Shown here: positions 9,242 to 62,862 of the stretch, one piece after another
How positions within the stretch are numbered: position 1 is the first letter of the stretch
Layout of the letters: the number at the start of each line of letters is the position of its first letter
Assembly (NCBI GenBank): GCA_030390025.1
Contig: CM059432.1
Span: 21,454,001 to 21,518,000 of the forward strand
Direction: 5' to 3'
Source: Squalus acanthias
Lineage: Eukaryota
Length of the DNA: 64,000 nt
Made by a program: the position numbers and the translations under genes
Notes under the pieces: model-generated
What the model was told of the DNA's origin: nothing
The model's input: only the letters and a program-made list of their open reading frames with translations
The model's database searches: none

Positions 9242-9242
9242 T

Positions 9243-9256
9243 TGGTGACCCCAACG
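9243..9256 (+). promoter_or_regulatory. Primer-binding site, tRNA-Trp type
   Basis: TGGTGACCCCAACG next to the LTR; 13/14 match to the tRNA-Trp PBS TGGTGACCCCGACG. Confidence 0.85.
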
Positions 9257-9281
9257 CTCAGAACGTATTCCGAGCACTGCA

Positions 9282-12200
9282 ATGGCGGACACGAACGCAG
9301 TTTCCGTGAAACTGCCGGAGTTTTGGGAAAACCAGCCCGAAGCCTGGTTTCTCCAAGCTGAATCTCGCTTCCGGCTGCGAAATATCACCACAGATGGGAC
9401 GAAGTACGACTATCTCGTCACATCACTCAGTAGCGCTGCAGTTTCCAAGGTTTGGACAACGCTGCAGAACCCACCAGAGGAAGGCAAGTACGCACATCTC
9501 AGAACAGCGCTCCTTAAAAAATTTACGGCCTCGGCATATCAGGAAACTGCCACCTCCTCGACCTTCCAGGCCTCGGTGATGCCTCACCGTCAGACCTCCT
9601 CTCCCACATGCTCTCCCTCACCGACGAGAGCCCACCCGGATCCCTCTTCCGCACGCTGTTCATCCGCCAGCTCCCTCTCAGCATCTGCCCAGCGATCGTG
9701 GCGTCCGGCCTCACGAACCTGGAAGCCCTGGCCGATGAGGCCGACAAGCTGCTGTCCGCTCACTCCAGCCGCGACGTCACTCCGGACCTGGCAGCCAGTG
9801 CCTGGGTGTGCCCCTCACCATCCAGCACGCGGCCACAAGGGCCTGTCACCAGGCCCACGGGGCCTTCGCGCCCCACTAACCCGGGCCACTGTTACTACCA
9901 CGCACGGTTCGGCGCCAGGGCACAACGGTGCACACCTCCCTGCTCTTTCAAGTCCGCCCCCGTTCTAGCCCCCGCGATGGCCGTGGGCCACGCGGGCTCC
10001 CTGCTGTTCGTCACGGATGACAAAACCGGCCGCCGGTTCCTGTGCGACACTGGGGCTCAGCACAGCATCATCCCGGCCTCCTCCCTCGACGTCCAAAAGG
10101 GCGAACGAGGACCGGCGCTGGCCGCTGCTAATGGCTTGGAAATCCGAACGTATGGCACCCGGACAGTCACCCTCGACCTCGCTGGTCACCGCTACCGATG
10201 GGAGTTCATCACTGCCAAGGTGCTCTCCCCCCTCATCAGCGCAGATTTCCTGTGCGCCCACGGCCTACTGGTAGACATCCCTCGTTACCGCCTCGTGGAC
10301 ATGAACACCCTGTCCCCCATCCTGAGCACCATGGCCCCCCATCAACCCGCCGACATGGCGTCACAGTGCCACGCCCGGGCCACGGATGACTACTCGGCAC
10401 TCCTGGCCGAATTCCCGGCCCTTACCAATCCGACCTTCTCTGCAGAGGCCGCCAAACACGGGGTGGAACACTTCATCCCCACCACAGGCCCCCCAGTGTA
10501 CGCCCACGCCCGCAGGCTGGACCCGGCCAAACTGGAGATTGCGCAGACCGAGTTTGCCACCATGGAACAGCTCGGCATCATCTGCCGCTCCAACAGTCCC
10601 TGGGCCTCCCCACTCCACATCGCCCCCAAACCAGGCGGAGGTTGGCGCCCCTGCGGGGATTACCGCCGCCTCAATGACGCCACCACCCCTGATCGGTACC
10701 CCGTGCCGCACATTCAGGACTTCTCGGCTAGACTGGCCGGCCGCTCAGTCTTTTCCAAGGTCGACCTGGTGCGCGGCTACCACCAAGTCCTCGTCCACCC
10801 CGCGGACGTCCCCAAGACGGCCGTAATCACCCCCTTCGGCTTGTTCGAGTTCCTGCGGATGCCCTTCGGCCTCAAAAACGCGGCCCAGGCATTCCAACGG
10901 CTCATGGACTCGGTCCTTCGGGACCTGAAGTTCCTGTTCGTCTACCTGGACGACATCCTGGTAGCCAGTTCCTCCAAGCAGGAACACCTCGAACACCTTC
11001 GCATCCTGTTAGGGCGCCTCAGCGACCACGGGCTCATCCTCAGCCCAGCCAAATGCCAGTTCGGCCTGGACAAGATCGACTTCCTTGGCCACCACATCAC
11101 CCATGCTGGGGCCATTCCCCTGCCCACCAAGGTGCAGGCCGTCCAACAATTTCCCCGCCCCACCACCATCAAAGGCCTCCAGGAGTTCCTCGGGATGGTG
11201 AATTTCTATAACCGCTTCATCCCCGAAGCGGCGTCCCTCATGAGGCCCCTGTATGAAGCCCTCCGGGGCAGGAGCGGCAAAATGGCGGTCGAATGGACGG
11301 CAGACGCGTCCGCCGCCTTTGATTCCACCAAGACCGCGCTCGCCAACGCTACCCTGCTCGCGCACCCACGGCCCAATGCCAGGGTAGCGCTCACCACGGA
11401 CGCCTCCGACCACGCGGTCGGCGCCGTGTATGAGCAGTGGGTTGACGGCGCCTGACAACCACTTGCCTTCTTCAGCCGCCAACTACGCCCCCCGGAGGTC
11501 AAGTACAGCACCTTCGACTGCGAGCTCCTCGCGCTGTTCCTGGCGGTCCGCCATTTCCGGTTTTTGCTTGAGGGCCACCCCTTCACTGCGTTTGTCGACC
11601 ACAAGCCCCTGACATTCGCAATGGCAAAGACAACCGACCCCTGGTCCGCCAGGCAGCAGCGCCAGCTCGCGGCAGTGTCCGAGTTCGCCACGGACATCCA
11701 ACACGTCTCCGGCCGAGACAATGTGGTAGCCGACTGCCTCTCCCGCCCCGCCATCCATGCCGCACACCTAGCAGTCGACTACGCTCAACTCGCAGCAGAC
11801 CAGAGCACCGACTCTGATCTGCTCTCCGCACCCACCAACCTACCAGGGCTACGCCTGGCCGACGTCGCCTGTGGCCCGACCGCAGTCACGGTCAAGTGCG
11901 ACATATGCCTATGTCAACCTCGGCCCGTCGTCCCAGCGTCCTGGCGCCGCCGGGTATTCGACATTCTCCACAACCTCTCCCACCCCGGTGCCCGCGCATC
12001 CATCAAATTGGTAGCCAACCGCTTTGTCTGGCGCGGCCTTCGCAAGGATGTGCGTACTTGGGCCAACTCCTGCCTAGCCTGCCAACGGGCCAAGGTACAG
12101 CAACACACGAAAGCACCCCTCGAGGAGTTTACCGTCCCCTCGCGGAGATTCGACAACATCCACGTGGACATCGTCGGGCCCCTGCCGCCGTCGCAAGGCC

Positions 12201-13093
12201 ACACGCACTTGCTGACCATCGTTGACCGCACCACACGCTGGCCTGAGGCAATTCCACTGACCTCTACCACCACCACCGACATCGCCAGAGCCTTCGTCAG
12301 CACCTGGGTCGCACGGTTCGGCGTCCCCTCCGACATGACGTCGGACAGAGGTCCGCAATTTACCTCTGAACTCTGGACCGCCGTCGCACGCAATCTCGGG
12401 GTGACCATTCACCGCACCACAGCGTACCACCCCCAAGCCAACGGACTGTGTGAGCGGTTCCACAGATCCTTGAAGGCATCTCTTCGAGCCAGCCTCCAAG
12501 ACGGCGCCTGGACCGACCGACTCCGTGGGTCCTCCTCGGCCTGCGCAACGCGGTTGAAGAAGACCTCCACGCATCGGCAGCAGAGCTCGTGTACGGTCAG
12601 CCGCTGCGCGTACCCGGCGAGTTCCTGCCCACCGCCACGACACCCTGGTCAGCTGACCAGCAACGCCACGACTTCGCCTCACCGGCGCTGCAGTTCGCCC
12701 CGGTGCCCATTGCCCGGCACGGCGAATCCACCTCACACGTCCCACTAAGCCTGCACCAGGCACGGTTTGTTTTCGTCCGGCACGACGCCCACCGCGGACC
12801 CCTTCAACCCCCGTACGACGGGCCCTACAAGGTGCTACAGGCTGGTGACAAATTTTTCACCCTGCAAGTGGGCGACAGGACCGAAAAAGTGTCAGGTGGA
12901 CCGACTCAAGCCAGCACACTCAGAGCCCGGTGAGCAGGTCCCTGTAGCTCGTCCACCTCCACGCGGCCGACCTGCCCTCAAGCCGGTTCACCCGGCTGCT
13001 CCACGCCCAGCCGTTCCACGTCCACCGGCGTCCTACAAGAGCCGCTCCGGCCGGCCTATCAGACCACCGCACCGTCTCGTCCACACCTCCTAA
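9282..13093 (+). pseudogene. Gag-Pol polyprotein, disrupted (frameshift ~9540, in-frame TGA 11453-11455, frameshifts ~12520 and ~12895)
   Basis: Gag VKLPEFW..PEAWF; CYYH-X9-CTPPC knuckle; protease LCDTGA; RT YLDD; RNase H TDAS; integrase HHCC, VDIVGP, SDRGPQF, NGLCERF; GPY motif. Confidence 0.93.
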
Positions 13094-15417: not shown

Positions 15418-16174
15418 GGGCTAGAAATTGGCCTTCTTTGCGCCTCCCTTTATCGCCTCCGGTGGGGTGGGAGTGGGGGGGGGTGCGATAACGGGACGCT
15501 AACAGCTTACCGACCAGGCGTGGCAAAAGAAACGACTTCCGTGAAATTCAGTGGGGGGAGGGGTAGCGCCACCTCGATCTCCTGCGCCCCGGAGGTCGTG
15601 ATGTCATCTGGTGCGCATTGCCCCATTACCGCCCCGGATCCTAAATTCGCTTCCGCCCCCTGCAGCTTCGCCGGGAGTCAGCAACGGCAGCTGCAGGAGG
15701 CGTTGTTACCTCGGCCGGCCGCTTGGGGAACGGTAATTAAAGTGACTGGTGGCCAAAATCTTTTCTCACCCCTTTGTGCTGTTTTGTTTCATTTTTCATT
15801 GCCGCGATTGATCAGCTCTGCACTCTCTTAGAGTGCTTGGGGCTGTTCCTCGCGGATCGCGGGTGCTGCCTCCGACCTATCCCCAGCCTTACCTTTGACT
15901 GCTGCGATCATTGGCCCTTCCCTTTAAGAGAGGGAAGGAGCCTGTGAATCTGGCAGCGTTGCACAGAACATTGCTCAGCGCTCTGCCGATACTGCCCCTC
16001 TCACTCCCTTTAGCGCTCTAAGGGAAGTGGTAGCGCTTGACTTAGCGTTCCACTTCCTTCATGGAGCGCTACAACTGAATTTCGCGGGAGCCTCTCATCA
16101 TTAGCGCCTGGTGATCATTTTTCCGCTTCCGAAGTTTTAGCAACCCAAATGGGGCTATAATGAATTTCTCCCCC
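15418..16174 (+). mobile_element. Non-autonomous Harbinger element (family A)
   Basis: GGGCTAGAAATT...AATTTCTCCCCC; right end GGGCTATAATGAATTTCTCCCCC identical to 33638-33660; flanks TAT/TAA. Confidence 0.8.
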
Positions 16175-16307: not shown

Positions 16308-16987
16308 GGGGGAAAAATTGAGTCGCGCCCCGAAAAAATTAGCGTCCCCTGCAGCCGATATTCACCGGTAGCGCCCCAAGAGGGAAGCGGGGTGCTACTG
16401 GAAGCGCCCCGCCTCCCTCTTGGGGCACCGTGAGTGAATCTCACGGCGCTACGTGCAGCAGCGCCACGCGCTGCGGCACATCGCGCCGTGGTACTGCAGG
16501 CCTTCCTCCCCTTCTTAAAGGGGAGGGGCCTAGCGCAGCGCGACCCGGGGCCCAGCTGGGCCACCAGGGATCGTAGTGCTGGCAAAAGACCCCAGCACTC
16601 AAGAGAAGTGCCGGGCTCACGGAGCGCAGCTGGCACTCCACGGGGGGGGGGGGGGGGCGGCTGCAGAGGAGGCTGGGGATGGCAGAGGGGGCAGGTGCTG
16701 GCAGGCAGCCAGCAACAAAAATGGACTGCCCGGCACTTTCCCTATAATTAGCGCCGCCCTGGCTGCAGGTAGGCCTCCCTGACCCCGTCAGACATAGCAT
16801 CCGGCGGTAAGTCAGGGGGCGCTACCGAAGATCGCGGCCGGGGCGCTGCGCACGGCAATGACGTCATCGTCGGCGGTGCAGCACCGTGGAGCGCTAACAG
16901 TTACCGCCGCCGCTAACCTCCCGCTGAATTTCGCGGGAGACGTTGGTGGCGCTAACGGGAGGCGCAAAGCAACCAAATTTTTAGACC
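16308..16987 (-). mobile_element. Non-autonomous Harbinger element (family A)
   Basis: GGGGGAAAAATT...AATTTTTAGACC; TSD TAT/TAT; subterminal GGGAGGCGCAAA shared with 38500-38529. Confidence 0.78.
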
Positions 16988-22527: not shown

Positions 22528-23294
22528 GGGCCAGAAATTAGGCTCAATGGCTTCCCGCGGGTGCAAGGATCGCGCACGCACCTACCGACCACGCCTGCCG
22601 TTGACCTCTGGGCCCACAGGGGACTTCGGCTCCTGGGCCTCCTGCAACTGCCGGCGCGCAGTGCTTGCGTATCCCAGGGGCGCAGTTAGTGCGATGCGTC
22701 CCCTGGGATCACGTGGGCCATGGAGAGCCAATGGCAGCAGACCATCTTTCATTCATAGATTTGACAGGAAGACCTGTCAAATCTATGAATACAGATCGGC
22801 CCCAAAACATCCCTAAAACTACAAATACATTTTTTTAAAAACATCACATTTTTTAAATAACTATAAATTACATTAATTAACTATTTTAAACAAAAATTTT
22901 AATTTTTGAAAAAATTAATTACACTTTTTAATGGGGTTAAAACTAAACTTACCTTTCTTTAAAGTAATTAAAAAAGATAAATCTGTGAAAAAAATGTTTA
23001 CATTTTAATAAAATCAACACTTACCTTGTTAAAAGAAGGCCTTGCGCCTCCTTTTTCAATGTGTATCTTCTCCGTGCTTACCCTCACGGAGGAACCTGTA
23101 AAAAAAAACGAAGTGCGAGGCGAACGCGCTGGCCCTCCGGCGTGCGCGTTCGACCTCTGAACCCCTTCCTTCAGGGGAACGGAAGTGCCAGTTTCCCGCG
23201 CATGCGCAGTGCATGCAAGAAACCGGCACTTTTGTTCCGTCCACGGGTGAGTACCCAACGCGTACTCACCCGTGGCGAGCCTAATTTCTGCCCC
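22528..23294 (-). mobile_element. Harbinger-type MITE (hairpin family H)
   Basis: TIR GGGCCAGAAATTAGGCTC vs GGGGCAGAAATTAGGCTC (17/18); TSD AAT; internal 18-bp palindrome. Confidence 0.88.
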
Positions 23295-23571
23295 AATATC
23301 TCCCTATCTATTATATCAAAACCCTTCATAATTTTGATCACCTCTATTAAATTTTCCCTTAACCTTTTCTGCTCTAAGAATACAATCCCAGCTTCTCATA
23401 ACTGAAGTCCCTCATTTCTGATACCATTCTGGTAAACCTCCTCTCCACACTCTCCAAGGCCTTGACATTCTTCCTAAAGTGTGGTGTCCAGAATTGGACA
23501 CAATACTCTAGCTAAGGCCTATCCAGTGATTTATAAAGGTTTAGCATAACTTCCTTTCTGTTGAACTCTAT

Positions 23572-24277
23572 GGGGGCGAAATTGGGTGCCTTTGTGCCTC
23601 CCGTTACTGCCCCCGGGGGCACTAACGGGGCGCAAATGGCTTTGCGACCGGGCGCGGTGCTGACATCGACTCCTGCCATATTTGGCGGGAGTTTTGCAGT
23701 GGCCCTATAGCATTGCGCCCCGATCTCCTTCGCCCGGAGATTGTGACGTCATCGCTGTGCGCATCACCCCGGACCTGAAATTGACTTCCGCCCCTGCAGC
23801 GATGGTCGAAAACACCGACAGCTGTAGGAGTTGTGCATCGGGTGGACGGCCACTTCGGGGCCGATGATGAAGGCGAGGTGGCCGAGATAAGTAAAAAAAA
23901 AACTTACCTTTCCTGTTCCAGTTTCTTTCGCGGGTTCCTGCCTTCGATCAATCAGGATTGCGGCTGCCTTGGTGGTCCAGGTAGGTACTTATTAAATTGC
24001 AGAGCCTGCAGCGATGGCCCATCCCTTTAAGGGAGGGAAGGAGCCTTTGAACGCGGCAGCGCTGCACGGCCCAGTGTTCAATGCTGCTGAAGTCTCTGCC
24101 CCGCCTGCTGCCGATTACACTCCAAGAAGGAAGAGGAGCTTGATTTAGTGCTCCACTTCCTTCTTGGAGCGCAAACGGTGAATTTTTCAAAAGTTTGAAA
24201 TCGTTAGCGCCTGGCACTAACTTTTCAAACTTTTAAAAATTACCGCCCCAAATGGGACAATAGTGAATTTCTCTCCC
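23572..24277 (+). mobile_element. Non-autonomous Harbinger element (family A)
   Basis: GGGGGCGAAATTGG...GAATTTCTCTCCC; colinear with 15418-16174. Confidence 0.8.
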
Positions 24278-25034
24278 GTGCCTCTATTTATAAAGCCAAG
24301 GATCTCACATCCATTTTTTAACAGCCTTATCAACTTGTCCTGCCACCTTCAAAGATTTGTGCACATGAACCCCTACATCTCTGTTCCTGTCCCCTTTTAA
24401 ATTGTACCATTTAATTTATATTGCCTCTCTTCGTTTTTCCTTTCAAAATGCATTACTTCACACTTCTCTGCATTAAATTTCATCTGTTATGTGTCTGCCC
24501 ATTTCACCAGTCTGTTTATGACCTCCTGAAGCCTGCTACTATCCTCCTCACTGTTTACTGCATTTCCAAGATTTGTGTCATCTGCAAACTTTGAAATGAT
24601 GCCCACTATACCCAGGTCCAGGTCATTAATACTAAAGGGAAATCTATTTCAAACATCCCTGACAAGAAGAAGAACTTTAACACAAAAGAAAACTTTTAAT
24701 GATGGCTATACTGCTTTGGAATGCAAGTGGACAGCAGAGTGTGGAGGAGCATTTTTAACAGACATTACTCATACAGGGACAGGTCTGGAGTTGCTAAGGA
24801 ACAGTGGAACTGACCAGCACTGTCTTGAGATAAGATCCTCATTAAACTGCAACAAGTGACACGCATGATGAAGTAACCCCACTAAACTTTAAACCAATCA
24901 TGAACAACAAGGAGAAAAGCCGTGCTTGAATGAGCCAATGATGGAGATATACACGTGAACGCCACATGAAGGATAAATGTATCCTGGTCTAACTAAGAGA
25001 AGACATCTAAAGATTCTAACTGACTTCAAGTGAG

Positions 25035-26028
25035 ATAAAAACAGAAAATGCTGGAAATACTCAGCCGGTCAGGCAACATCTTTGAAGATAGAAACAGAGT
25101 TAACGGGCTGGATTTTGCCAACGGGGAGCTTTTGGAGGCGGGACTACCACTTATTGGGTTTCAGTCCCGCCTCTATCAACTTCTGGCCAACCCATGCTAT
25201 TTTCCCTTGATTGACCTTGTTAAGCCCGCCCAGCGGGCTTAGGCCAATTAAGAGAAATCCGATTACAGAGAACGTTAATGTATGACGTTTCATCTGTCAA
25301 AAATCTGTGAAGCTGCCAAACACTGACATTCTCTGTAGTTTGATGAGTTCTTGAATTCAAGACCTCATCAAACCTCTTTCTTTTGTAGAAATTAGATGGT
25401 TGTTGCATTGGAGAATGCAACGGCCGTCTGTCATCTCTACTGCAGAGGTGCGAGACTCTCCGCATACCCACCGACTGAAGCCTGCAGGAAGAAACAAAGG
25501 TAAGTACACTTTTCTAACACTTTGCACTTACCACAGATACTCACCTCTCCACACTTGCACCCATCACTCATCTCCACAGCACACTTTTGCACCCCTCCGA
25601 CCCCCGCAGACCCACTACTCGCCTCGGTGACCCTAGTGGGGTTCGGAGCCTTCGGGAAGCCCGCACTTATGTGGGCAAAATGGTGATAATCCTCTTATCT
25701 GTCTGTTAACTACCTGTTAACAGGCAGTTAAATGGCTGTAATCCCTTCCCGCCTCCAAGGAGACGGGACCCGGCGCGGGACGGCTACCCGCCTCCTGGCA
25801 AGATGGCACGGAGGTGGGTTGGGGACGGGTTGGGCACCCGCCCCCAAATTCTGCCATTTTCCCAGCAGTCCCGCCTCCAAACCCACCTCCCCAGGGCTGG
25901 TAAAATCCTCTGTTAACGTTTCTCTGTTAACTCTGTTTCTCTCTCCACAGATGTTGCCTGACCTACTGAGCATTTCCAGCATTTTCTGTTTTTATTTCAG
26001 ATTTCCAGCATCCGCAGTATTTTGCTTA
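25035..26028. mobile_element. PLE-derived inverted pLTR pair with nested MITE
   Basis: 25035-25104 is inverted relative to ~25926-25996; 14-bp TSD TGACTTCAAGTGAG at 25021-25034 and 26029-26042; same family as 255-710. Confidence 0.8.
25105..25913. mobile_element. Harbinger-type MITE
   Basis: GGGCTGGATTTTGCCA..TTTGGAGGCGGGACT mirrored by AGTCCCGCCTCCAAA..TGGTAAAATCC. Confidence 0.65.
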
Positions 26029-26264
26029 TGACTTCAAGTGAGTGTTGGTTTAGCTAACTGGGCACTTGAAGACTTCAGGACAGGTTAAGTTGGGTTCTTA
26101 TTTAATCTGTGTTTTAGTGGTTAAATAAAAGATCTTTGGGAGATAGTTTATCTGTGTGGTTTTATGTTAAAGTGGATTCAGGCCTACGATCCTACTCTAG
26201 CACCTAATGTGGGAGATGTGAAAGTCGCAAATAATTCCTGCAATACATATCAGAAATAGCAGTG

Positions 26265-26385
26265 GTCCTAATACTGACCCCTGGGGAAAATACTGACCCC
26301 TGGGGGACATTACCGATCCCTGGGGTCAATACTGACCCTGGAGGCAATACCAACTCCTGGGGGGCAATACCGACCCCGGGGGACT
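26265..26385. repeat. ~19-bp minisatellite (AATACTGACCCCTGGGG) derived from a LINE RT motif
   Basis: About 6 diverging copies; reverse strand of the first copy reads PQGSVLGPLLFLI. Confidence 0.75.
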
Positions 26386-27639
26386 TTCAGGTTGGGGCAG
26401 ATACAGTGATCCTCAGGCAGTAGCCAATTTTTGAAGGATTGTAATTCCCATACAACGTACAGTTCAAACTTATTGGAAGGCTTGAAATTCTATAGTCCAT
26501 TAATATCTCGAAATCCTCAGTATCATGTTTCCATTGCTGACAAGCATTATAACTTTACAGAACCCTTATCAGTTTTGTGACAAAATGAGTAGCACTATCT
26601 ATATATCCTATTATATTATAATTATATCCCATTCCACCAAATACTGTATTTAAGTATTATCATCTTATCTATTAAGTCTCTACTCCCCTTAAGTATATGA
26701 AAAGCTAAAATTTTACGATTAATTTCTATGGGTCCTTGGCTGACATATGAGATAACAGCAATTAGATTTTTTTCTGTACAGTACTGCATTGTATACTTAG
26801 ATGTTTCTATTTGAGAATGATAATTTGTTAATGCAAAAAATTTACATTGATATAGTGCTCTTTCTGTGCACAGAAAAACATCTCAAAGCACTTTACATGG
26901 CAGGGGAAAAAAACAATGGATGTCGAACAGAAGGGTTAAAGGGAAAAGGGAAAAGTTAGGGGGTGGAGATTGAAGTCATGGTTTAAGGGAATGGTTTTGA
27001 TAAGCAATTAGGGAAGGCAGTGGCAAAGCTAATGGAGTTTTGGATGGCAGAGGTATAATGGTTGAAAGAATGGCCACCGATGGTGGAGTGGAACAGAGAA
27101 CAGGGATAGCTAATGGTTCCTTTTAAGTGAGTTTGTTTAACTTGTCATTTTTAGTAATTCCCAGAGTCATTCTAGTGTGAATATTTTTTACAAGATCACA
27201 AGATGGATATGGATGAAGAAAGACATTCTGTTAAAATTATGAAGAAGAATGAATGGATTGGAGTAGATAGCTGCAGTTGAAGGATTAGCATCAGTTCACC
27301 CTCAATGGATCATGTTTTCTTTCACTGCTTCAATTTCTATGATTTTTTTTTTCATTCAAAAAGCGTACAGGTTCAAACTGGTGAAAGGGAAGCTTAAGAT
27401 TAGTGTTTGCAAGTTTATCTTTACCCAAAGATGAATTATAATTATCCTAGCACATTCATCGAGAACAAGTCTACAAGATCTACCCCTCTCCACCATAGCA
27501 TCTAACTGTTGCTTAAGTTATTTCAGGATTTTTGCCTCTATTCTCCTAATCCGAAGTCCAGTCAAATGTTAATTTGTCTTTGAGTAAATTTGAACTTCCA
27601 AACACCAAAAAACAAGCTGTTACGTCAAAATGTTGATGG

Positions 27640-27975
27640 TTCAAACTCTAGGACCTGAGCACATAACCTAGGCTGTAGTGAAGTTAGCGCCACATTGTCG
27701 TAAATGCCATTGAACATAGGCCTTGTCAGCCTGCTCATCTGGGTGTAAAAGATCGCACGGCACTTTTTCACAGAAGACCAGATAGTTCTCAAAGTGTCCC
27801 GGCCAACTTTCAGTCAATAACACTGTAAAGAGATTAATTAGTCATCTCATTGTTGTGTTGGGACTTCACTGTGTGTGCAAATTGCCTGCCACATTTGCTA
27901 ATAAAACAACTGTAACTCATTTCTCAAGTAATTTAGTAGCTGTGAAGCACTTTGTGATGTCCTGATGTCTTTCTA
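27640..27975 (+). mobile_element. DeuSINE-like SINE, old copy
   Basis: GTAAAAGATC..GGCACT..GTGTCCCGGCCAAC..GTGCAAATTG. Confidence 0.55.
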
Positions 27976-28841
27976 AAGTTCTTTTTTTCTTTGATATTAT
28001 GCTGCACTGCTTATCTTGTTAATTCGGGCTGCTAAATTAATTAGTAACTTGGTGTATACTTCCTTTCAACTGTTCTTTTTCCAAAAATGTACTAGCCTGC
28101 TTGAACTGTATCTGCTGCCTATTTGTCCACTCGACTGACCTATCTGTATCCTCCCACAATCTCTGACATTTTTATTCACAGTTTGTCATTCCCCCAAATT
28201 TGGTATCATTTGGTTATTAGCTGGAGATGAAAATAAACAATGTAACAGAGTAAATTCACTGTACAATTCTGCCACCCCTTCAATGAATTTTATTGTCCTG
28301 CTACAAAGAATATCTTCTTTACCACTTTTCCAAATAAAGGGGGGGACATTTAGTTGGTTAGTGCTTCCAGTTAGTGCCTGGCAGAGGAGCCAACGGGGCG
28401 CTGATGCAGTAGCGCCAGGGTGAGGTGAATCAAGCAATGCACGCCAAATCTGACCCACCCATAGTGCCACCACTACGAGTTACCGCCGGGGACCTCAGCG
28501 CCAGGCAGATCATGATGTCAGTGAGTGTGCAACGCTCACTGGGCGCCCGATCTGCAAAATTCATTGTGCCCCCTGCCATAGCGCCTCGCCCCGACAACGA
28601 TAGGGAGAGGAGGCGTCAAGCAGGTGGATGCCGGCTCCAGGGGAAGTACTTAAAGGGATCATGAGTAATGAGTCACAGCTGTCAATGTTAGTGCTGTTTC
28701 ACTGCTTCCTTGTCAGTTTGACATTGTGCAACAGTTTAATTCAGTCATTTAAAGGTTTTTTAGTATGTGGACTGTTGTGGCTACTAACAATTAGTACATT
28801 TATTCTCACAACATATCAAAGTGCTACACTTGGTTACATTA

Positions 28842-29945
28842 ATGGGGGCTGTACTGGCAGTCGACCTCGCCCTCCAGGATCTATGGCAGAGGGAGCGGAG
28901 GCAGCGAGAAAGATTGGAACACGTGGCCAGAGGGAGGAGAAGGGCCATGAGGGCTCTCAACAGGAGGCCTTACGTTCCGAGGGTATTCTGAGAGCACTTC
29001 TCCTGCCTCCAGTTAAGCGAGGGGCAGTGTATTAGAAGGCTCCGCTTCAGCAAGGAGCTGGTCGCAGAACTCTGCCACCTCCTGCAACCAGACCTCCAGC
29101 CTCAGATCAGGGCTACCACGGCTCTCTCAGTGGCAATCAAGGTCACCATCGCCCTCAATTTCTTCGCCAGCGGATCCTTCCAGTCTGCAACAGGAGATAA
29201 AGGTAACATCTCGCAGCTCACTATCCATCGCTGCACCCGGGAGGTCACAGAGGCTCTCTACAGATGGAGAAGGGACTACCTTTCCTTCCCCATCACCAGA
29301 GAGAAGCAGGATGAGCGTGCATGTGGCTTTGCCAGGATAGCGGGCTTCCCCATGGTGCAGGGTGCCATTGACTGCACACATGTTGCTTTTCGAGCACCGC
29401 ATAACAATCCTGAGATCTTCCGTAACCACAAAGGCTACCACTCACTTAATGTGCAGTTGGTGTGCGACCACAGATAACAAATCCTCATCTTGCACCAGAC
29501 CGGTGTTCCAGCACTCTTCCAGCCACAACGTCAAGCTCACAGCTGGCTGGTCGGAGACAAGGTTTATCCGCTCTCCACCTGGCTCATGACACCCCTCCGC
29601 AACCCCAACACTCCTGCCCAGCACTCATATAATGAGAGCCATGCCACCGCCAGGAACATCATCGAGCAGACCGCTCGGGAGGAGCCCTCCAGTACTCGGC
29701 TGAGTGGGTGTCCCATTTCGTCGTGGTCTGCTGCTTGCTCCACAACTTGGCCATCATGAGGGCCCAGCCCTTGCCACCAGGGATTGCAGGACCACCTCAG
29801 GAGGAGGAAGAGGGAGAGGAGGAGCAGGAGGAGGAGGATGAGGAAAAGGAGGAGGAGAGCAGGAGCAAGGGAGGAGGCAGCCACTCAATCGGCCTTCCGG
29901 AAGGGTGGTCTGTGACCGCCTCATCAGACTGCAGTTCCAATTAAT
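28842..29945 (+). pseudogene. Harbinger (HARBI1-like) DDE transposase, disrupted
   Basis: ALNFFASGSFQ, GFPMVQGAIDCTHV, NHKGYHSLNVQLVCD, WLVGDKVYPL..WLMTP, YNESHATARNIIEQ; frameshifts, stop and two apparent internal deletions; Glu-rich tail. Confidence 0.9.
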
Positions 29946-30079
29946 TAAACCCCAGATCCCTGTTGCTCACCACATCCTTATGATTCCATCCCTGTCGCAG
30001 GACATATCACAGCGCAAAGCTGAAATGGAAGACACCACAAAATAATCCAAACTGAATTAATAAATTTATCAATAATCAG

Positions 30080-31380
30080 TGAATGGGCCTATACTCTCTG
30101 GAGTTTAGAAGACTGAGAGGTGATCTCATTGAAACATGCAAGATTCTGAAGGGGATTGACAGGGTAGATGCTGAGAGGTTGTTTCCCCTGGCTGAACTAG
30201 GGGGCATAGTATCAGGATAAGGGGTCGGCTATTTAAGACTGAGATGAGGAGGAATTTCTTCACTCAGAGGGTTGTGAATCTTTGGAAGTCTCTGCCCCAG
30301 AGGGCTGTGAATGCTGAGTCTTTGAGTATATTCAAGGCTGAGATCGATAGATTTTTGGACTCTAGGGGAATCAAGGGATATGGAGATCGGGCGGGGAAGT
30401 GGAGTTGAACATAAGAACATAAGAAATAAGAGCAGGAGTAGGCCATATGGCCCCTCGAGCCTGCTCCACCATTCAATGGGCCGAAAATTGATCCCGGGAC
30501 GCGAGAGTACGCACTGCATACTCTCGCGTATTCCCACTCCAATTGCCGGTTTTCTGCATGCCCTGCGCATGCGCTGAAAACCGGCAATTGCTCTTCCGAA
30601 AAGGGGGCGGGGCCTGGGTGCATCGCGTGCGCGCTACAGGCTGCGCGCACGCTGTGCACTTCATGCTTTGGACGCGCAGATAAGTAGGGAAGATTTTGGA
30701 AATGTAAAAAGGAGGAGTAAGACCCGCTTTTAAGAAGGTAAGTAGTGAATTAAGTATTTTTTTGAATTTTTTTTTACAGGTATATCTTTTTTATAGACTT
30801 TAAAGACAGGTAAGTTTATTTTTATAACTTTTTAAAACATTTTAAATTTTTTCAAAAATTTTATTTTTTATTTAAAATGGTTAATTTAATTAACTATACT
30901 TATTTTATTAATGTGATGGTTTTTTTTTTTTAATTTAATTGAGGTTTAGCTGTTATTTTGGGGGGGTGTAAGATTCATAAGTCTCACAGCCATGCTGTGA
31001 GACTTATGAATGGAAGATGGTGTGCTGCCATTGGCTCTAACTGAGTCACGTGATCCCACAGCTCGCACGAATTCACTACGCCGCTGGGATACGCAAGCCC
31101 AGCACAGCTGATGTCTGGAACATCAAGTTCGTGCGAGCTGGATCAGAAAAAGCATAAGCGAGGTCAGACATCGCGGGGAAGGCTTACCCCCGCGGGAACA
31201 GAGCGAGATCAATTTCTGGGCCAATAAGATCATGGCTGATCATCAACCTCAATTCCACTTTCCTGCCCGATCTCCATATCCCTTGATTTCTTGAGGTCGA
31301 TGATCAGCCATGATCTTATTAAATGGCAGAGCAGGCTCGAGGGGCCGTATGGCCTACTCCTGCTCTTATTTCTTATGTTC
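30080..31380 (+). mobile_element. CR1 3' end containing an antisense CR1 tail (30409-31290)
   Basis: LYSLEFRRLRGDLIE; TTGA duplicated around the antisense copy. Confidence 0.8.
30478..31222 (+). mobile_element. Harbinger-type MITE (hairpin family H)
   Basis: GGGCCGAAAATTGATC...GATCAATTTCTGGGCC; TSD AAT; homologous to 22528-23294 in the opposite orientation. Confidence 0.87.
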
Positions 31381-31404
31381 TAACACACATTTACAACAAC
31401 TTAC

Positions 31405-33300
31405 CTAGTCACCCTTATGCAATCTTTTAGTGCCTCTCGTTACTGTGCCTTTGCCTACTCTAGTGCTCCTACAAAGTGTTGGCCCAGTGGCTGCAGCAGG
31501 GCTGGTTGAAGGCTGCTGAGTGTCCGTGCGGGAGACTTCAGATGACCTTGCAGGATACCTTCGACCAGCTCTGGGCCTGGAAGGCCTGGCTGTAGACTGC
31601 ACCACCTCAGCATGGGCGGCAGCAGTCTGGGCTGGTTGGATGACAGGCAGCGACAAGGACAATGGTGGAGTGGCAGTGGTGGGATCAGGAATGCTTTTAT
31701 CCTGAGAGAGGACAGCAGCTTCCTGCTCCACTGACCCACTGCCACTGCCCAGGGGCAGCACCTCAGCATCCCTAGCAATCTGTTGGAGTAGAGATTGTTG
31801 GCCTGCTGCGACACCATGAAGCCCCGGTCGACGGTGGTAGACCCAGCTAGCAGTCAGAGCTTGTGTTGCATGAAGCTGAGACTGCATGAGAGCAGTCTGA
31901 GATTGAATGCCACTCAGCATAGACTGCATTATAGCACTAAGACGTTGCATCGCTTCTGCCTGTACTGCAATGGAAGCTGACAGAGTGCCCACCACACGCG
32001 GCATCAGGTCTGGGTCACAACGGTCTCTCTGGGAGTCTACCATCCTTTGCAGACTGGAAATGATGGGCTCCATGGTGTGCGCAGAGCTTTGTGGCAATGT
32101 TGGAGGCGAACTCCTCAACTCTCCTTACCATTGCCGAGAGGCTCTCGGGCACCTTTGCCATTGCACCTATCATCTCCGTGTGCATGCCCGTCACCCTTCT
32201 TCTAAAGGCCTCCTCATCGAGGTCCTCATCTGAGTCCTGTGCAGCAGAACTCACGCCCGAACTTGCCCTCCAGGGAGCTGGCTCCCGAGCTACCCTTTCC
32301 CCTGGCCTTGCTGCAGCCTGCTCGTCCCTGGTGCCTCACCCTGTGCAGATCCCGCTACTATACTAGCATCTAAAGAATGCGTAGTGCCAGTATCTGAGCC
32401 GGTGCCTGCGGGTGAGAGATGCAGTGACGCGGTGTGTTATTCCTCCTCCTCTTCTCCCACATCGCTCTCTACAGTGCCCTCGGGGACAGGCTGCTCAGGT
32501 GCTTGCTCATTATCTGAAAGCATAAAGGCACAAGGTTTGGGTTAAGGGATGGGAGGGGGTAGGAAGGGAGAAATAAATGCATACAGCATGATTAGCTGGA
32601 AAGTGCGAAAGGCTTGTGGGGTGAGGGTGAAGTGGGATGTGAGAAGAAGGATTAGGGATGAACATACCGTTGTTGTCCCCAAGGGGGTCAACGTCGCCGG
32701 TGGCCACGACGCTCACCACCAGGTACCCAATAATCTGCAGCACTCGAGTGTCTAGCTCAGACAGTGGTTGGGTATTTGCTTATCCCCCGCCTGTGCGCTC
32801 CTGCTCCCTCCTCTTGTGAGCCACCTTGGCCTGCAAGAGAAAGGAAAGTGTGTGAGTGAGTGTGGAGCAATGTGTTTGGGTGATGTGCCTGCCATAGTTG
32901 AATAGCTGTCATTGTGTGTAAGGTGTGAGATGCAGGTGTGAGTGCTGGTAGGTAGAGATTGTTGGTGGGTGAGTGCTGGGGGTGTGGTGCTTTGGGCAGT
33001 GTGTGCAGACTGTGGTTCAGATGGTGGTATGTAGCATTTGTTGAAGCATTGACTCACCCTGACCACACGAGTGAGGCCGTTAAATTTCTTCCTACACTGT
33101 TTATGGGTCCTGGGGACCACAGTGCTGCCTGAGACATGCTGGGCTACCTCCCTCGACATGGTGCGGAAGACTTGCGGCGAGGGCCTCCTGCCAATTGCCG
33201 GGTAGAGCACTGCCCTCCGTCTTTCCACTGCGAACACCAACACCTCCAATGCAAGGTCACAGAATCTGTGGGCTCTCTCCCTGGGGCATAGATCTGCCAT
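31405..33300 (-). pseudogene. Harbinger Myb/SANT-like DNA-binding gene, 3 predicted exons (33300-33058, 32830-32668, 32513-31405), disrupted
   Basis: RAHRFCDLALEVLV..RTHKQCRKKFNGL spliced (GTGAGT / TTGCAG) in frame to AKVAHKRREQERTGGG; premature stop and frameshifts. Confidence 0.82.
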
Positions 33301-33704
33301 CAGTATGGCTGCTTGAGTCGTCCGGCTCCTTCTCCTTGACCTGCTGCTGCTGGCTGAGACGGCTGCACAGCCAGCAATGATGAGAATGAGGTTCTGCAGC
33401 ATCAATGAACTTCCCCTTTAAGAACTGGAAAGAGTCTGTGGCAATGATGACTTGTGATTGGACTGCACCTGATATTGGTCAGTGCTTCGAGTTTAACGCC
33501 ACTGAGCTAGGCCATTAACACTTGATTTATTGCTCCAATCCTTTCTTTGTGCAATGAGACTTAATTTTGCGTGCAGTCTGAAGCATTGCCGCCTGGTGCT
33601 AATTCTCAAACTTTTTCAAAAGTTATTGCCCATTCCTGGGCTATAATGAATTTCTCCCCCAAAGTTTTTTTTATATGCTACAATAAAATTTTACCTGGAC
33701 AGCA

Positions 33705-34010: not shown

Positions 34011-36057
34011 AATGTGAGGAGAATATTGGAAAAAAATCAGTTATACAGTTAATTTGCAGTCAGTATTCTTTTTACTCTGTTTTCTTGGTTATAAAAAATA
34101 ATAAAATGTTTATTAAAAAGATTGATATCAGAGGTATGAAAAGTCAAGCAGCGAGGTTTAGCTTTTGTTGTAATATGGCCCCGTATTTTTTCCAAGCATA
34201 ATTAATAACCTAATTTCTCACCAAAGTGATTTTTGATGTTTGTTGAATAATTGCAGGCTGTCAAACCCAGCAGTTCCAATAGGTTATTCCCATGAATATT
34301 TATAAAATCCGATGCCTTAATATAAAATTGGTGTTAGAGCTGTTTAAAAAAGGGCTGCTGTACATAATTATAATTCTGCAGAAAATGACAAGACAATATC
34401 ATTAGAAACATCTGCTGATGTCAGAACTGTGTAGGGCTTTAAAGAAATCTTTGAATGTTTTCATTTTTTTTGAGCGATTGTGTAAGAAAACTGAATTTAA
34501 TTAGTTGTGACAAAATCTTTTGCTTTTCATGGGAAGAGGGATCTTCCCACACATAAGTCTGAGCTTCTGTTTAAAAATAATTAGGCTGGACTTGCACTTC
34601 TTCCTAGTGACTCTGTGGGATACATTTACTTTGCCTCTTCCTGTATTGAAGAGTTTGCTTTTATTCTTTTTTGTGTGAATTTTTGTGCTTATCAAGTTGG
34701 GTTCTTTTGGTGCTGGAGAATGGGAAACTTTCCAACTGTCTGTCAAGAACTTGTAGGTCAACTACCACATGGGTAGATGCAGAATAAAACCCTCTTGATC
34801 GTGCCCCAGCCCTCAACTCTCAGAGAGCACCTCACACCTGAACTTGTTTCCATTTCTCACACCAACCATCTCATGGCCTCTTAGATTGAGATGGCCAGTT
34901 TAATGTCACTTAGTTCTGAATTAGGCACAATTTTGTGTTGTGGTTCCATGTGCATTAGGAACTGAATTAAAACTACCATGAAGAAAAATAAATGCAAGAA
35001 ATGTCTTAATTTCTTCCTAACTTCTCTACCTCCTTTCACCTGCACATTCTCTCCTGCCTCCTTGATTTCATGCTGATTCCTTCTCCTCACCTATGCTATT
35101 TATCCAAAAGTTAAAAAATAACCGGAGGCAGAACCATCTGGTTCACTCAGTTGTTGATCCAGGTCAAGGAACCACTGAAGCTACTTATGCCTTGACCTGT
35201 TTTGGTCTTCTTATTAAATCAGGAACTCTTGATTTCTTTTCAGTAAATATTTGGCCTTCACTGCACTTGGTGGAAGTCTGTTTCTTAAATAAACTTAAGC
35301 TCTGAAATCTCATGATTATAACCAAGTTGACTTAGCTCCTTCTGGTTCGAACATAAAGAACTTCCCCATATCCAATGTACTGTCATTCTGTATCCTGGTA
35401 GTCACCAGTATGTCAAAATTGGGCGTCTGTGAGCTGAATAATACAGCTGCGATGTGCAAACTGCCTAATCCTTGCCAAGTCTTCTGTTGCTATCTGGCAC
35501 AAGCCTGTGGAAAAAAAAGTTGAGTGCTGCCATCAGTTTTGCTGCAATTGGCAGTGTAGTGTTGATGTGGCTTCTTGGCTGCAGGGCTAGTTCTAGAAGG
35601 TTGCAAAATTCATCAATGGTTTCCTAAGTTTGCATACAAAACAAGAATGACTATACTTCAAACGCAATGAATTGGTTACGAACTGCTTTGTGATATCCTG
35701 AGGATGTAAAAACCACTGTATAAATGCAAATTGTTTTCTCTCTTTCTTAAGCGAGTCTTAACTTCATCACACATTGCGTCAGTGAGGTTGCGATAACTCT
35801 GCCTTTGCAGTTAACATGCTGCCTAAGATAACAGTAGATGTCCTGATGGACCTCTTTCAATTGGTCATGGACCACTTCTTCTGCTTCTCCTTCTACTATA
35901 ACTTACCCAGTAAAGTAAGGCTTGCTGGTGGACCCCCTGGGACACATCTCATTGTCTTGGCTGTGCTCTTAGTGTGTCTTTGATGTTGGGAAATATTTGA
36001 ATAGATTTTGTCTGTGTTTAAATTGTGAATTCTGGGAGATTCTCTCACTGCTAACTT

Positions 36058-36141
36058 ACCTGAGGAAGGAGCGACAGCTCCGAAAGCTTGTAAAATTAAA
36101 TAAATCTGTTGGACTATAACCTGGTGTTGTGCGACTTCTCA
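36058..36141 (+). mobile_element. Short PLE-pLTR-like cassette with intact hammerhead core
   Basis: CTGAGGA-A-GGAGC-GACA-GCTCC-GAAA-GCTT, then AATAAA..GTTGGACTATAACCTGG. Confidence 0.7.
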
Positions 36142-36149
36142 TCTATTAC

Positions 36150-37367
36150 ATCAGCATCGGTGCCCCTGAAACTATATCACCTTGGTCCTCAGAATCCCAC
36201 CTCGATCAGCCCCAACACCAGTAGCTCCAGGCACACCAGCAGCACCAACAACAACATCAACCTTCTCCGCAATCAACTGATGCTGCACAGGACAGAGGGC
36301 ATCAGTGCCCGACTACATTGCTGCCCAGGACATCAGGGATGGCCTCACCATGGCCACATTTACTTCACTTGATGCTGTTGCACCCTGGCTGCCACATGAT
36401 GCGCCAGGTTGGCACCACCCCACACCAACACCATAAGGCATCCGTACAATACCCAAGCCATTCCTTTCACACTCATCACCATTGCGGGGGGTACTGTTAT
36501 GTCTCACCATTCACTGCAACTCACTAAGACACTTCCAAAGGTGTACACAAATCTGTCCAAGAATGCAAAGTGTTGAAAATAAAGGTTTCTATGTTTGACA
36601 GCACATTAACAGAAACTTTACATGAACATTGGCTAAAACACCCAAGTGCCTTGCCTTGTGTGTTGTTAGTTGGTATGATTGGACTAGGATGAGGGTGAGT
36701 TTGAGGGGTGGCTAGTGAGATGGGGAAGTGATAATGTAGATAGAGAGGGATGGGTGGAGGTGCAAGGTAAGTTGGTGTGAGTAAGGATGTGCAGGAGTAG
36801 GGTAGGGAAGGCAGAGTGATGGGGATGTGATGAGTGGCACAGCAGGATGAGGTTGAGTGTGGCTTTGTACTAACGTTTCATGATCTACTGAAGCCTGGTC
36901 CTCCTTACAACATCCCTGCTTGTGTCCTCCTGTACAATGTGCAACCAGGCTGCGTTGGTCTCCTGGGGAGGTCTCTTCCGCCCATTGGAAGGGAGGAGAA
37001 CCTCCCTGCGTGCTGTGACTCCCTCCATAACCATTTGGAGGGAGTCATGGGAGAGCCTGGGTGCAGCCCTGAACCTCTGTGCAGTGCTTGTCAGTGTTTG
37101 CAGCACCTCAATGCTGTAGAACACTGACAGCACAAACGTCAAAATCAATTTGCGCATGGTCCCTTTAAGGAAACTGCTGATGATGCGTCATCAAATGACA
37201 TCATCAGACCCGTTTCCTTCATTTGGCCGGCAAACGCGCTGGGTGGGCCTAACAAGCCCAATCAGGGGAAAATCATTTTGGACAGCGGTCTGGAGCCGAC
37301 AGCGGGGTCAGGACTCGCCACCGATGTCACCCGCCACGGACCCGCCGAGGTAGGTGAAATCGCGGCC
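36150..37367. mobile_element. Harbinger deletion derivative with Myb-like first exon (minus strand, ~36875-37100)
   Basis: RAAPRLSHDSLQMVMEGVTARREVLLPSNGRKRPPQETNAAW parallels the Myb exon at 33058-33300; terminus GAAATCGCGGCCC. Confidence 0.7.
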
Positions 37368-37674
37368 CACATTTCTCCTTTCTACGTCTCCTTTTCTTGC
37401 TACCTTGATGTCACCTTTGAAGCTGATACCATTCATTCCAAGTGCATTGGAAGGCAAGCATGAGTAAGTAAGGTGTTTCTTGTTAACTGCTGCTTATTAG
37501 AAAACAAAAAGAATCATTGGCAGAGGGTCCCTGAATTAACATGCATTAAACCAGATTAGTCCCGGGGACTATTTTAGGAGCAGGGCAAAAATTTTAGCAA
37601 CTGCTCTATTAGTGCTACTGCATAAAATTCCTACACCTTACCTCACTTAATTTGTATGCTAGCTGTAGCACATA

Positions 37675-38529
37675 GAGGGAGAAATTCAGTATCGCCCCAT
37701 TTGGGGCGCAATTATTGGCCGGGTGCAAAGATTAGCGCCTGGCGCTAATTATCGCCTCCGACTGCAAACTTGGCTTTTATCGCCCCTGGAGGTGATTGGA
37801 GCGCTAAATCAGGCGCTTCACAACTGTCTTAAGGCGCAAAGGCCGAGGAGCAAGGTGCTACCTCAGAGCGCTGGCGAAGTTCATGTGATGTCAGTCAGCA
37901 ATGGAACATAGACACAATGGCGCTGGCCAGTTCTTATTGCAGCCTTGAATCTCGACCTGGAGAGACCTGTACGTCAAATCTGCTGGAAAGAACAATGGAG
38001 AGACCCAGGGAAAGAGCTCAGAGTGCAGCCCCCACAGTCTCTTCTAAATCGATACAATGAAGGGCAAATCAAAATGAACCTGCAAAGTGCTGCTCAGTAC
38101 CCAAAACTCCTTCACACAGTTTTGAATCTCTCCAGAAGTCTCTCTCTCGCTCTCTCTCAGAATGCGTGGTGCAAAAATGTCACCAACAAAAAAAGGCAGG
38201 AAGCGGGTGCCTTTAAATAGCGCTCCCCCAGTCCCTTCCTGACTGCAAAACGCTCCCCTCAACCTGTCGTTGCTAGCGGCAGGCGGTAAGGCAGGGGGCG
38301 CCACTCAATATCTGGTCCGGGATGCTACCGGGGCGTTGCGCACCCGACTGACGTCATGATCTGCCGGCGCAGGAGATCGTGTCGGTACTGTTTAGCGCTG
38401 CCGCAAAATGTCTAGTTAATTTCGTGAGCGGCGCAAACATCGCCGCGCACGGGCGCTAGTTGCTTTGCGCCCCATTAGCGCCCTCTTAAGGCACCAACGG
38501 GAGGCGCAAACCAACTGAATTTTTCCCCC
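37675..38529 (-). mobile_element. Non-autonomous Harbinger element (family A)
   Basis: GAGGGAGAAATTCAG...CTGAATTTTTCCCCC; TSD ATA; both ends match the full-length element in reverse. Confidence 0.85.
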
Positions 38530-42729: not shown

Positions 42730-43212
42730 GGGGCCGTATTTTCCGATCGGAAGCCTCCGATCTGGAAAAAAATCTACGCACTTACCTGAGGGCTCCCGAG
42801 GTGCGTATAGTTCCGATGCTGGGCCTCTCGAACTCCAAGTGTGCAGGACCCACGTATCCCAGGGGCGCATGCGGTTCGCAAGTGTCCCTGGGATCACGTG
42901 GACCATGGGGAGCCAATCAAAGAAGGGAATCTCCCTTCATACACTTGACAGGAAGACCTGTCAAAGATATGAATGGAGAGCACCCCAAAAATACTTCAAA
43001 ACATTAAATAATTTTTTTTTTAAATCACATTTTTTAAATTAGTTGAAATTACAATAAATTAAATATTTTAAACAAAAATGTAACTTCTTGAAAAAATAAA
43101 TTAAAGTTTTTTACGGGGCTAAAAAATAAACTTACCTTTTTTAAAGTATTTTTAAATGATAAATGACTGAAATTAAAAAAAAAACTTTTTCAGCTCTTAT
43201 CCTGGTAAAAGG
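42730..43212 (-). mobile_element. Truncated hairpin-family H MITE
   Basis: Colinear with 22528-23030 (GGGATCACGTGG..AGCCAAT, TTGACAGGAAGACCTGTCAA, AT-rich tract). Confidence 0.8.
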
Positions 43213-62677: not shown

Positions 62678-62862
62678 GGGGGCAATTTTAATTTAACCCG
62701 CTTGTCGGGAAACTGACGGGATCGCGTGCAACGCTGGTTTCACACCCCGCCCGATTTTACTCTCCATTGGAGTAAATGGAGAGCAATATTGGGCTGGGTG
62801 CAAACTGGCATTCCACCAGATCCTGTGGGTTTTCTCCTGGCGAGTTTATTAAAATTACCTCC
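62678..62862. mobile_element. Short MITE
   Basis: GGGGGCAATTTTAAT...ATTAAAATTACCTCC inverted ends; central CTCCATT..AATGGAG palindrome. Confidence 0.6.

What the first reader, a model, noticed from the sequence alone, without database searches (positions are those of the whole stretch)
22751..31011. MITE family keeps an internal 18-bp hairpin through compensatory changes
Seen: 22751-22790 is a perfect 18-bp stem (ATTCATAGATTTGACAGG-aaga-CCTGTCAAATCTATGAAT). The homologous site in the second copy, 30973-31011, is also a perfect 18-bp stem (ATTCATAAGTCTCACAGC-cat-GCTGTGAGACTTATGAAT). The two differ at 5 of 18 arm positions, and each difference is mirrored on the other arm. A third copy (42936-42973) pairs 14/17. 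The hairpin lies between a CACGTG+CCAAT block and a long AT tract, away from the TIRs. Inference: structure rather than sequence is maintained, suggesting a functional cruciform, RNA stem or symmetric binding site. A cut-and-paste MITE is not known to me to need one. Arm-to-arm conversion is the neutral alternative.
Basis: partly seen in the sequence, partly recalled or inferred. Interest (0 to 1): 0.72.

Follow-up and report, generated by a model that had tools for sequence, protein, structure and literature searches.

The report
Mirrored hairpins in shark mini-transposons
A very abundant small jumping element in a shark-like genome contains several short hairpins whose two halves change together between subfamilies, most likely because one half is re-copied from the other during DNA copying, a known process that does not by itself show the hairpin has a job.

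Summary
In detail: two perfect 18-bp stems (22751-22790, 30973-31011) differ at 5 of 18 pairs, all mirrored; chance under independent mutation is about 1e-8 to 1e-10. They lie in a 745-767-bp non-autonomous Harbinger-type element (3-bp TSD; broken two-gene Harbinger nearby). The hairpin is not special: three further internal palindromes and the TIRs also show mirrored changes (11 mirrored against 4 unmirrored in 56 internal pairs), and 20 of 21 strong hairpins in bases 5001-64000 sit in such elements. The arms diverge as fast as the flanks (28% against 26-31%). Copy 3 has five arm changes, none mirrored, so pairing is kept in source lineages, not in inserted copies. In public contigs, copy 1's arms are the family's majority sequence; one common arm variant shows no mirror (unresolved); 5 of 7 joints end at the hairpin tip, hinting that it folds in germline DNA. 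Best reading (0.5): arm-to-arm template switching, probably during gap-repair copying of source elements. Selection for a symmetric site or cruciform stays open (0.27). No genome was held, so subfamily covariation is untested. The scan noted mirrored arms before in other genomes.

The parts
22528..23294 (+). MITE copy 1 (767 bp), complete; TIRs of about 18 bp, 3-bp TSD AAT/AAT
22671..22709 (.). internal palindrome H1 of copy 1 (10-14 bp arms); present in all three copies, altered with a bulge in copy 2
22710..22732 (+). CACGTG and CCAAT motifs, invariant in the three copies; promoter-like (inference from recalled motif names)
22751..22790 (.). hairpin H2 of copy 1: perfect 18-bp stem, 4-nt loop; equals the majority letters of the family
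22803..23060 (.). AT-rich tract (80% A+T) with two 5' splice-site consensus matches on the minus strand (22947, 23019)
23121..23152 (.). internal palindrome H3; 2 mirrored, 0 unmirrored changes in 9 pairs against copy 2
23183..23231 (.). internal palindrome H4; 2 mirrored, 3 unmirrored in 17 pairs against copy 2
23241..23275 (.). subterminal palindrome H5 (14-bp perfect stem); 2 mirrored, 1 unmirrored in 12 pairs against copy 2
30478..31222 (-). MITE copy 2 (745 bp), complete, opposite orientation, TSD AAT/AAT; another subfamily, about 30% diverged; nested in a retroposon fragment inside the broken Harbinger
30973..31011 (.). hairpin H2 of copy 2: perfect 18-bp stem, 3-nt loop
30499..30659 (.). 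palindromes H5 (30499-30529), H4 (30540-30590) and H3 (30618-30659) of copy 2
42730..43200 (+). MITE copy 3, left part only; followed by LINE-like sequence, no right end found
42930..42979 (.). hairpin H2 of copy 3: 14 of 18 core pairs, 3x3 bubble at pairs 8-10, and 5 extra outer pairs (42930-42934 with 42975-42979) that copies 1 and 2 lack
28339..33660 (.). broken two-gene Harbinger-type element with the same kind of TIR and a 3-bp TSD (AAA/AAA): DDE_Tnp_4 fragment on + (28992-29474), Myb/SANT-like exon on - (33058-33300); not the parent of this MITE (no internal similarity)

Best explanation
The element is a non-autonomous Harbinger/PHIS-type MITE that carries several short internal palindromes. 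Their arms evolve in concert because one arm is now and then re-synthesised on the other as template (quasi-palindrome template switching or repair of a folded-back strand). This acts mainly in the few source elements that are copied again and again, most plausibly when the gap left by excision is refilled from the sister chromatid, where the new strand is displaced and single-stranded. A mirrored change fixed in a source is then amplified as a subfamily; once inserted, copies decay and are not repaired. Shown: mirrored changes in four internal palindromes and the TIRs, arm divergence equal to flank divergence, stem extension in one subfamily, unrepaired decay in copy 3. Hinted: folding in germline DNA (joints at the tip). 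Inferred: the template-switch event itself and its coupling to gap repair. Weak selection on the outer half-sites may act on top.
For: (1) Mirrored changes are element-wide: H2 5, H3 2, H4 2, H5 2 (11 mirrored, 4 unmirrored, 56 pairs) and TIR 3 mirrored, 5 unmirrored of 18. (2) 20 of 21 hairpins scoring >=11 in 5001-64000 lie in TIR-bounded elements of several unrelated families (bounds read by eye, four tentative). (3) Arm divergence 5 of 18 (28%) against 122 of 405 (30%) and 82 of 318 (26%) in non-hairpin columns: concerted neutral evolution predicts equal rates, two-step compensation under selection predicts slower stems (my reasoning). (4) The copy-3-type subfamily has 5 extra outer pairs made from flank that is unpaired in copies 1 and 2 (loose ends of the same kind in X16 and X14); stem extension is a named template-switch signature (PMC8794818, parts 1 and 3 of 6 read). 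(5) 5 of 7 listed joints have their right end at 22767-22775, the tip; two are clean 39- and 42-base deletions of the left arm with 2-3 filler letters; about 1e-4 under a simple uniform model. (6) Repair synthesis has a 1,000-fold higher mutation rate with quasipalindrome mutations in yeast (PMC12891019, passages read).
Against: No template-switch event was caught in an individual copy, and no loop inversion was seen (loops of copies 1 and 2 are not reverse complements). Ordinary replication cannot be enough, since copy 3 has 5 arm changes and 0 mirrored; the gap-repair step that rescues the model is inferred from yeast, not shown here. Conserved blocks, including the outer half-sites, exceed shuffles (11 runs >=6 against 5.2, p = 0.002), and contigs with copy-3-type flank keep copy 1's left arm unchanged (records 13 and 21, my reading of matching depths): that points to constraint. 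The transition share of mirrored changes (5 of 11) separates neither from flank background (40 of 122) nor from the 61% reported for rRNA (PMC8794818). The joints are single contigs of one run, 3 of the 5 may be replacements, and the upper edge of the cluster is set by what can be laid. Only three copies were seen in phase.
Confidence: 0.5

Rival explanations
1. The palindrome is a selected DNA cis-element of the mobile element: a two-fold symmetric site for the Harbinger Myb/SANT partner or a host factor (outer half-sites read, inner arm free to co-vary), or a cruciform helped out by the AT tract, which raises the transposition of source elements. Copying may supply the mirrored variants, selection keeps them.
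For: [quoted passage not shown]
Against: Inner arm changes at the flank rate; stem length differs by subfamily (18, 18, 23); unrelated families in the window have unrelated hairpins; an arm variant at 22759 is carried by 21-39% of depth in 4 of 4 runs with no mirrored change at 22782 listed (unresolved, as those contigs seem to stop at the loop); other 35-46-bp stretches also have no listed variant, so low arm variation is not unique.
Confidence: 0.27
2. The stem works as RNA: a 5' leader hairpin behind the CACGTG/CCAAT promoter inherited from the parent element, an intronic stem on the strand of the splice donors, or a short perfectly paired small-RNA precursor (18-bp stem with 3-4-nt loop is the geometry of Ago2-cleaved miR-451-type hairpins, recalled), whose first 7 nucleotides, the would-be seed, are the invariant part.
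For: Strong local fold on both strands, with a longer lower stem on the minus strand of copy 1; 2 of the 3 bubble mismatches of copy 3 are G-U on the minus strand; splice-site consensus matches conserved on that strand.
Against: No Rfam match in the window (0 of 4227 families); no G-U pair in either perfect stem; 6 of 11 mirrored changes cannot pass through a wobble; a cut-and-paste element is not copied through RNA, so selection on its RNA is indirect; the two wobbles are expected one time in four by chance.
Confidence: 0.13
3. The hairpin is the remnant of a tiny nested TIR element (two TIRs and a 3-4-bp core) carried as a passenger.
For: A 39-40-bp perfect palindrome looks like a minimal TIR element; TIRs co-vary.
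Against: No duplication flanks it in any of the three copies; no copy outside the three MITEs in the window (nhmmer); it would not explain H3-H5.
Confidence: 0.05

Closest known systems
Template-switch (quasi-palindrome) mutation; Monttinen & Loytynoja 2022, PMC8794818 (parts 1 and 3 of 6 read); Ripley model (recalled)
   Same: Perfect Watson-Crick stems kept through multi-base mirrored changes, short loops, stem extension.
   Different: Described for rRNA and microRNA loci and reporters; here in a vertebrate cut-and-paste MITE, at several palindromes at once, and apparently confined to source lineages; no loop inversion seen.
Non-autonomous PIF/Harbinger (PHIS) elements, Tourist-like MITEs such as mPing; Han et al. 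2015, PMC4482050 (passages); Redd et al. 2023, PMC9921582 (passages)
   Same: Short, non-coding, GG-starting TIRs, 3-bp TSD, two-gene relative (DDE + Myb/SANT) in the same window; internal sequence can matter for mobility.
   Different: TSD AAT fits the ANT target of the Pangu group rather than TWA, while neighbours with the same TIR type have AAA and TAT; the mPing paper holds neither 'hairpin' nor 'secondary structure' (0 occurrences).
Repair-associated mutagenesis in gene conversion (PMC12891019, passages)
   Same: Supplies the high rate of strand dissociation and quasipalindrome mutation needed for homogenisation in repeatedly copied elements.
   Different: Yeast reporter; not shown for transposon gap repair in a vertebrate germ line.
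Palindrome centre-break deletions and cruciform-prone AT-rich repeats (search listing only; mechanism recalled)
   Same: Asymmetric deletions ending at the palindrome tip; AT-rich neighbourhood.
   Different: Those palindromes are hundreds of bases long; this one has 18-bp arms, and the evidence is five contigs.

Membership tests
MITE (non-autonomous TIR element) | short, TIRs, TSD, no coding capacity | tested here: met
   767 and 745 bp, TIRs 15/16 and 13/16 alike, AAT/AAT. Stop-to-stop frames of 134-161 aa overlap the copies but run out into flanks and are not shared between copies; they were not scanned against Pfam.
MITE (non-autonomous TIR element) | high copy number | tested here: met
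   4491, 219, 78 and 230 contigs laid on 281 bp in 4 of 4 runs; holders in several organisms. Not a copy count.
PHIS / PIF-Harbinger superfamily | 3-bp TSD and GG-starting TIRs shared with a DDE + Myb/SANT element | tested here: met
   DDE_Tnp_4, E 2.1e-05, just under cut-off; Myb_DNA-bind_4, E 4.2e-04, under cut-off
PIF/Harbinger group in the strict sense | TWA target-site duplication | tested here: not met
   AAT in copies 1 and 2; PMC4482050 gives TWA for this group and ANT for Pangu
PHIS / PIF-Harbinger superfamily | a cognate autonomous parent with matching ends and internal sequence | not testable with these tools
   no genome held; the element at 28339-33660 shows no internal similarity
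Template-switch-maintained palindrome | several mirrored changes with perfect pairing | tested here: met
Template-switch-maintained palindrome | stem extension from flank | tested here: met
   copy 3 and loose ends; one subfamily
Template-switch-maintained palindrome | loop inversion, or mirrored changes private to single copies | tested here: inconclusive
   none in three copies; contig tables give no phase
Selected RNA stem | slower stems, G-U intermediates, transition-type compensation | tested here: inconclusive
   stem not slower (28% against 26-31%); 5 of 11 transition-type; 2 G-U in copy 3
Known RNA family (Rfam) | match at gathering score | tested here: not met
miRNA / Ago2-cleaved hairpin | defined small-RNA product | not testable with these tools
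   no small-RNA or raw RNA run listed
Nested mini-transposon | own TSD and free-standing copies | tested here: not met
   (window only)

The most novel reading that the evidence does not exclude
Shark Harbinger-type MITEs carry an array of internal palindromes that are working parts: they fold out in germline DNA (breaks at the tip) and are selected in source elements, either as cruciforms or symmetric Myb-partner sites that drive amplification, or, for H2, as a miR-451-like hairpin with an invariant seed. This would be a structure-encoded internal cis-element in a cut-and-paste MITE, tuned by a transposition-coupled symmetrising process that dead copies do not undergo.
Probability: 0.18. Interest if true: 0.68.

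Novelty: new member of a known kind. Interest (0 to 1): 0.33.

Why it matters
If the best reading is right, these very high-copy families are a natural record of template switching in a vertebrate germ line, with a built-in contrast between copied source lineages (mirrored) and dead copies (unmirrored), and a warning that covariation in transposon hairpins is not evidence of function. If selection is right, it names an internal cis-element that helps explain why some MITEs reach huge copy numbers, a long-standing question that becomes testable by one-arm and two-arm mutants. I did not find the pattern described for Harbinger MITEs in searches (open-licence library only; supplements not seen).

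Tried and rejected
No whole genome is held for this window, so genome-wide copies, subfamily consensuses and phased covariation could not be built. Metagenome scan with the CACGTG/CCAAT motif: 36 loci, none similar to the element beyond the motif (best E 0.015): chance. Hairpin pattern in viral and prokaryotic contigs: 0 and 0. Rfam: nothing. Earlier findings by sequence and by relatives: nothing. No RNA holder listed; run X14 is only guessed to be RNA, shows the same variants as DNA runs and no joint, and is not used as evidence on expression. A test of 'fewer variants in arms than flanks' (1 of 40 against 38 of 241 places listed) was rejected as unsafe: 5 rows are hidden, variants cluster, and two flank stretches of 35 and 46 bases also have no row. 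Transition/transversion share of mirrored changes: too few events to decide. Four other frames scanned in Pfam gave nothing (1 of 6 matched). Two rows (H2 copy 1/copy 3, H4) and three right ends were off by 1-3 bases; corrected values come. Helitron/Helentron considered from the hairpin and rejected: TIRs and 3-bp TSD present, hairpin not terminal.
Full report
Observation. The stems are as described. Copy 1 (22751-22790) and copy 2 (30973-31011) are perfect 18-bp stems with 4- and 3-nt loops. They differ at pairs 8, 9, 11, 13 and 18, each mirrored; pair 18 closes the loop and may be part of a loop rewrite. Copy 3 (42935-42974) pairs 14 of 18. The copy 1 and copy 2 stems beat 40 of 40 local shuffles; copy 3 does not (19 of 40 reach it). 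Under independent substitution at 20-30% divergence the pattern has probability 2e-10 to 4e-10, or about 1e-8 without the closing pair. Some process couples the arms.

What the element is. Copy 1 spans 22528-23294 and copy 2 spans 30478-31222 in the opposite orientation; both have GG-starting TIRs and an AAT duplication. Copy 3 starts at 42730 and stops near 43200 at LINE-like sequence. These are the only three copies in the window. A broken element at 28339-33660 has the same kind of TIR, a 3-bp duplication, a DDE_Tnp_4 fragment (E 2.1e-05) and a Myb/SANT-like exon (E 4.2e-04), both below Pfam's cut-offs; it marks the TIR type as PHIS/Harbinger but is not the parent. AAT fits the ANT target of Pangu rather than the TWA of PIF/Harbinger proper (PMC4482050, passages), so I file it under the superfamily only. 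'Shark-like' rests on my recall of the repeat content and on earlier notes about this genome; it is not a result of my calls. The family is abundant and shared by several organisms: 20 runs hold words of copy 1, and 4491, 219, 78 and 230 contigs were laid on 281 bases in the 4 of 20 runs that I laid.

The hairpin is one of several. Copies 1 and 2 share four more palindromes. Between them H3 has 2 mirrored and 0 unmirrored changes (9 pairs), H4 2 and 3 (17 pairs), H5 2 and 1 (12 pairs); with H2 that is 11 and 4 in 56 pairs. H1 carries a bulge in copy 2 and was not counted. The TIRs, 750 bases apart, show 3 mirrored and 5 unmirrored in 18. Beyond this family, 21 hairpins score 11 or more in bases 5001-64000, and 20 lie in elements with the same kind of TIR (bounds by eye, four tentative); two unrelated families reach scores of 19 against shuffle maxima of 10.5. 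Internal palindromes are thus a trait of these elements as a group.

Rates. The H2 arms differ at 28%, the non-hairpin columns at 30% (122 of 405), 26% (82 of 318) or 31% (31 of 101 nearby). Arms that are homogenised without selection should diverge at the flank rate; stems that cross a harmful unpaired state should be slower (my reasoning). Of 11 mirrored changes 5 are transition-type; the flank share is 40 of 122 and rRNA instantaneous compensations show 61% (PMC8794818), so this does not decide. Against pure neutrality, 195 of 337 three-way columns are invariant and form 11 runs of 6 or more where shuffles give 5.2 (p = 0.002); the outer 6-7 bases of both arms are two of them, as are CACGTG, CCAAT and a splice-site match.

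Public contigs (contigs only, no phase, 40 of 45 variant rows shown). Copy 1's arms carry the majority letter in 4 of 4 runs while its flanks have private letters (22792, 22854), so its perfect stem is inherited from the source, not repaired in place. Two contigs with copy-3-type flank (records 13 and 21) have five other letters that match flank rows by depth, which leaves the left arm identical to copy 1; copy 3's arm changes are then largely private, and none of its five is mirrored. Copy 3 and loose ends of its type show 5 more outer pairs, a stem extension. One arm variant is common: 22759 A>T in 30%, 38%, 21% and 39% of depth. A one-base loop deletion is seen in all four runs. Of 7 joints, 5 have their right end at 22767-22775, at the tip; all five are single contigs of run X3, two are deletions of 39 and 42 bases with 3 and 2 filler letters, three may be replacements. 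A uniform model gives about 1e-4 but ignores how the tool seeds; it is a hint that the hairpin folds and breaks in germline DNA.

Mechanism. Template switching creates and maintains perfect stems, with multi-base compensation and stem extension (PMC8794818). Ordinary replication alone is not enough here, or copy 3 would be repaired. Cut-and-paste elements multiply when the donor gap is refilled from a sister copy (established knowledge; passage in PMC4168063), and repair synthesis in yeast is 1,000-fold more mutagenic and yields quasipalindrome mutations (PMC12891019). Source lineages pass through this again and again; inserted dead copies do not. That explains why all palindromes and the TIRs co-vary between subfamilies and decay within copies (0.5). 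Selection on a symmetric DNA site or cruciform explains the same contrast and the conserved half-sites (0.27); internal sequences do tune mPing mobility (PMC9921582) and the Myb-like partner binds subterminal sequence (PMC13668399). The two are not exclusive. An RNA role (0.13) has only the fold, two G-U pairs in copy 3 and a recalled likeness to miR-451 geometry; Rfam has no match. A nested mini-element (0.05) lacks a duplication and free copies.

Novelty and verdict. The family and its co-varying palindromes were not found in searches, which cover open-licence papers only. The process is known, and this scan has noted mirrored arms in mobile repeats of other genomes (unchecked notes). The finding is real and broader than reported, but covariation here is not evidence of function. 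Interest 0.33; the open point worth following is that pairing is kept in source lineages only, and that breaks appear to fall at the tip.

Noticed in passing
window 28339-33660: Broken two-gene Harbinger-type element, transposase on + and Myb/SANT-like gene on -, convergent; interrupted by a CR1/SINE-like fragment that itself holds MITE copy 2.
   Followed up: partly
window 15418-16174, 16308-16987, 23572-24277, about 25104-25910, about 37676-38529, about 46100-46937, 62678-62865: Further non-coding elements of other families with the same kind of TIR, each with internal hairpins of up to 23-29 bp; the 188-bp one has a central 26-bp stem.
   Followed up: partly
window 22947, 23019, 30736, 30808, 42780, 43130: Perfect 5' splice-site matches, two per copy, all on the same strand of the element; 6 of the 13 such 8-mers in the window. 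Similar motifs occur in the other MITE families.
   Followed up: no
   Followed up: partly
window 42964-42967: Copy 3's right arm has a two-base change that equals an in-place inversion of those two bases; a possible micro-inversion, one case only.
   Followed up: no
window 35900-37369: Probable remnant of another Harbinger end with Myb-like gene traces, TIR at 37357-37368.
   Followed up: no
window 9240-12930: Gypsy-type LTR retrotransposon with long gag/pol frames and 268-bp repeats at 8974 and 13111 (98% alike); a few breaks in pol.
   Followed up: no
window 1150-4980: About 3.8 kb purine-rich tandem array with a 25-bp unit.
   Followed up: no
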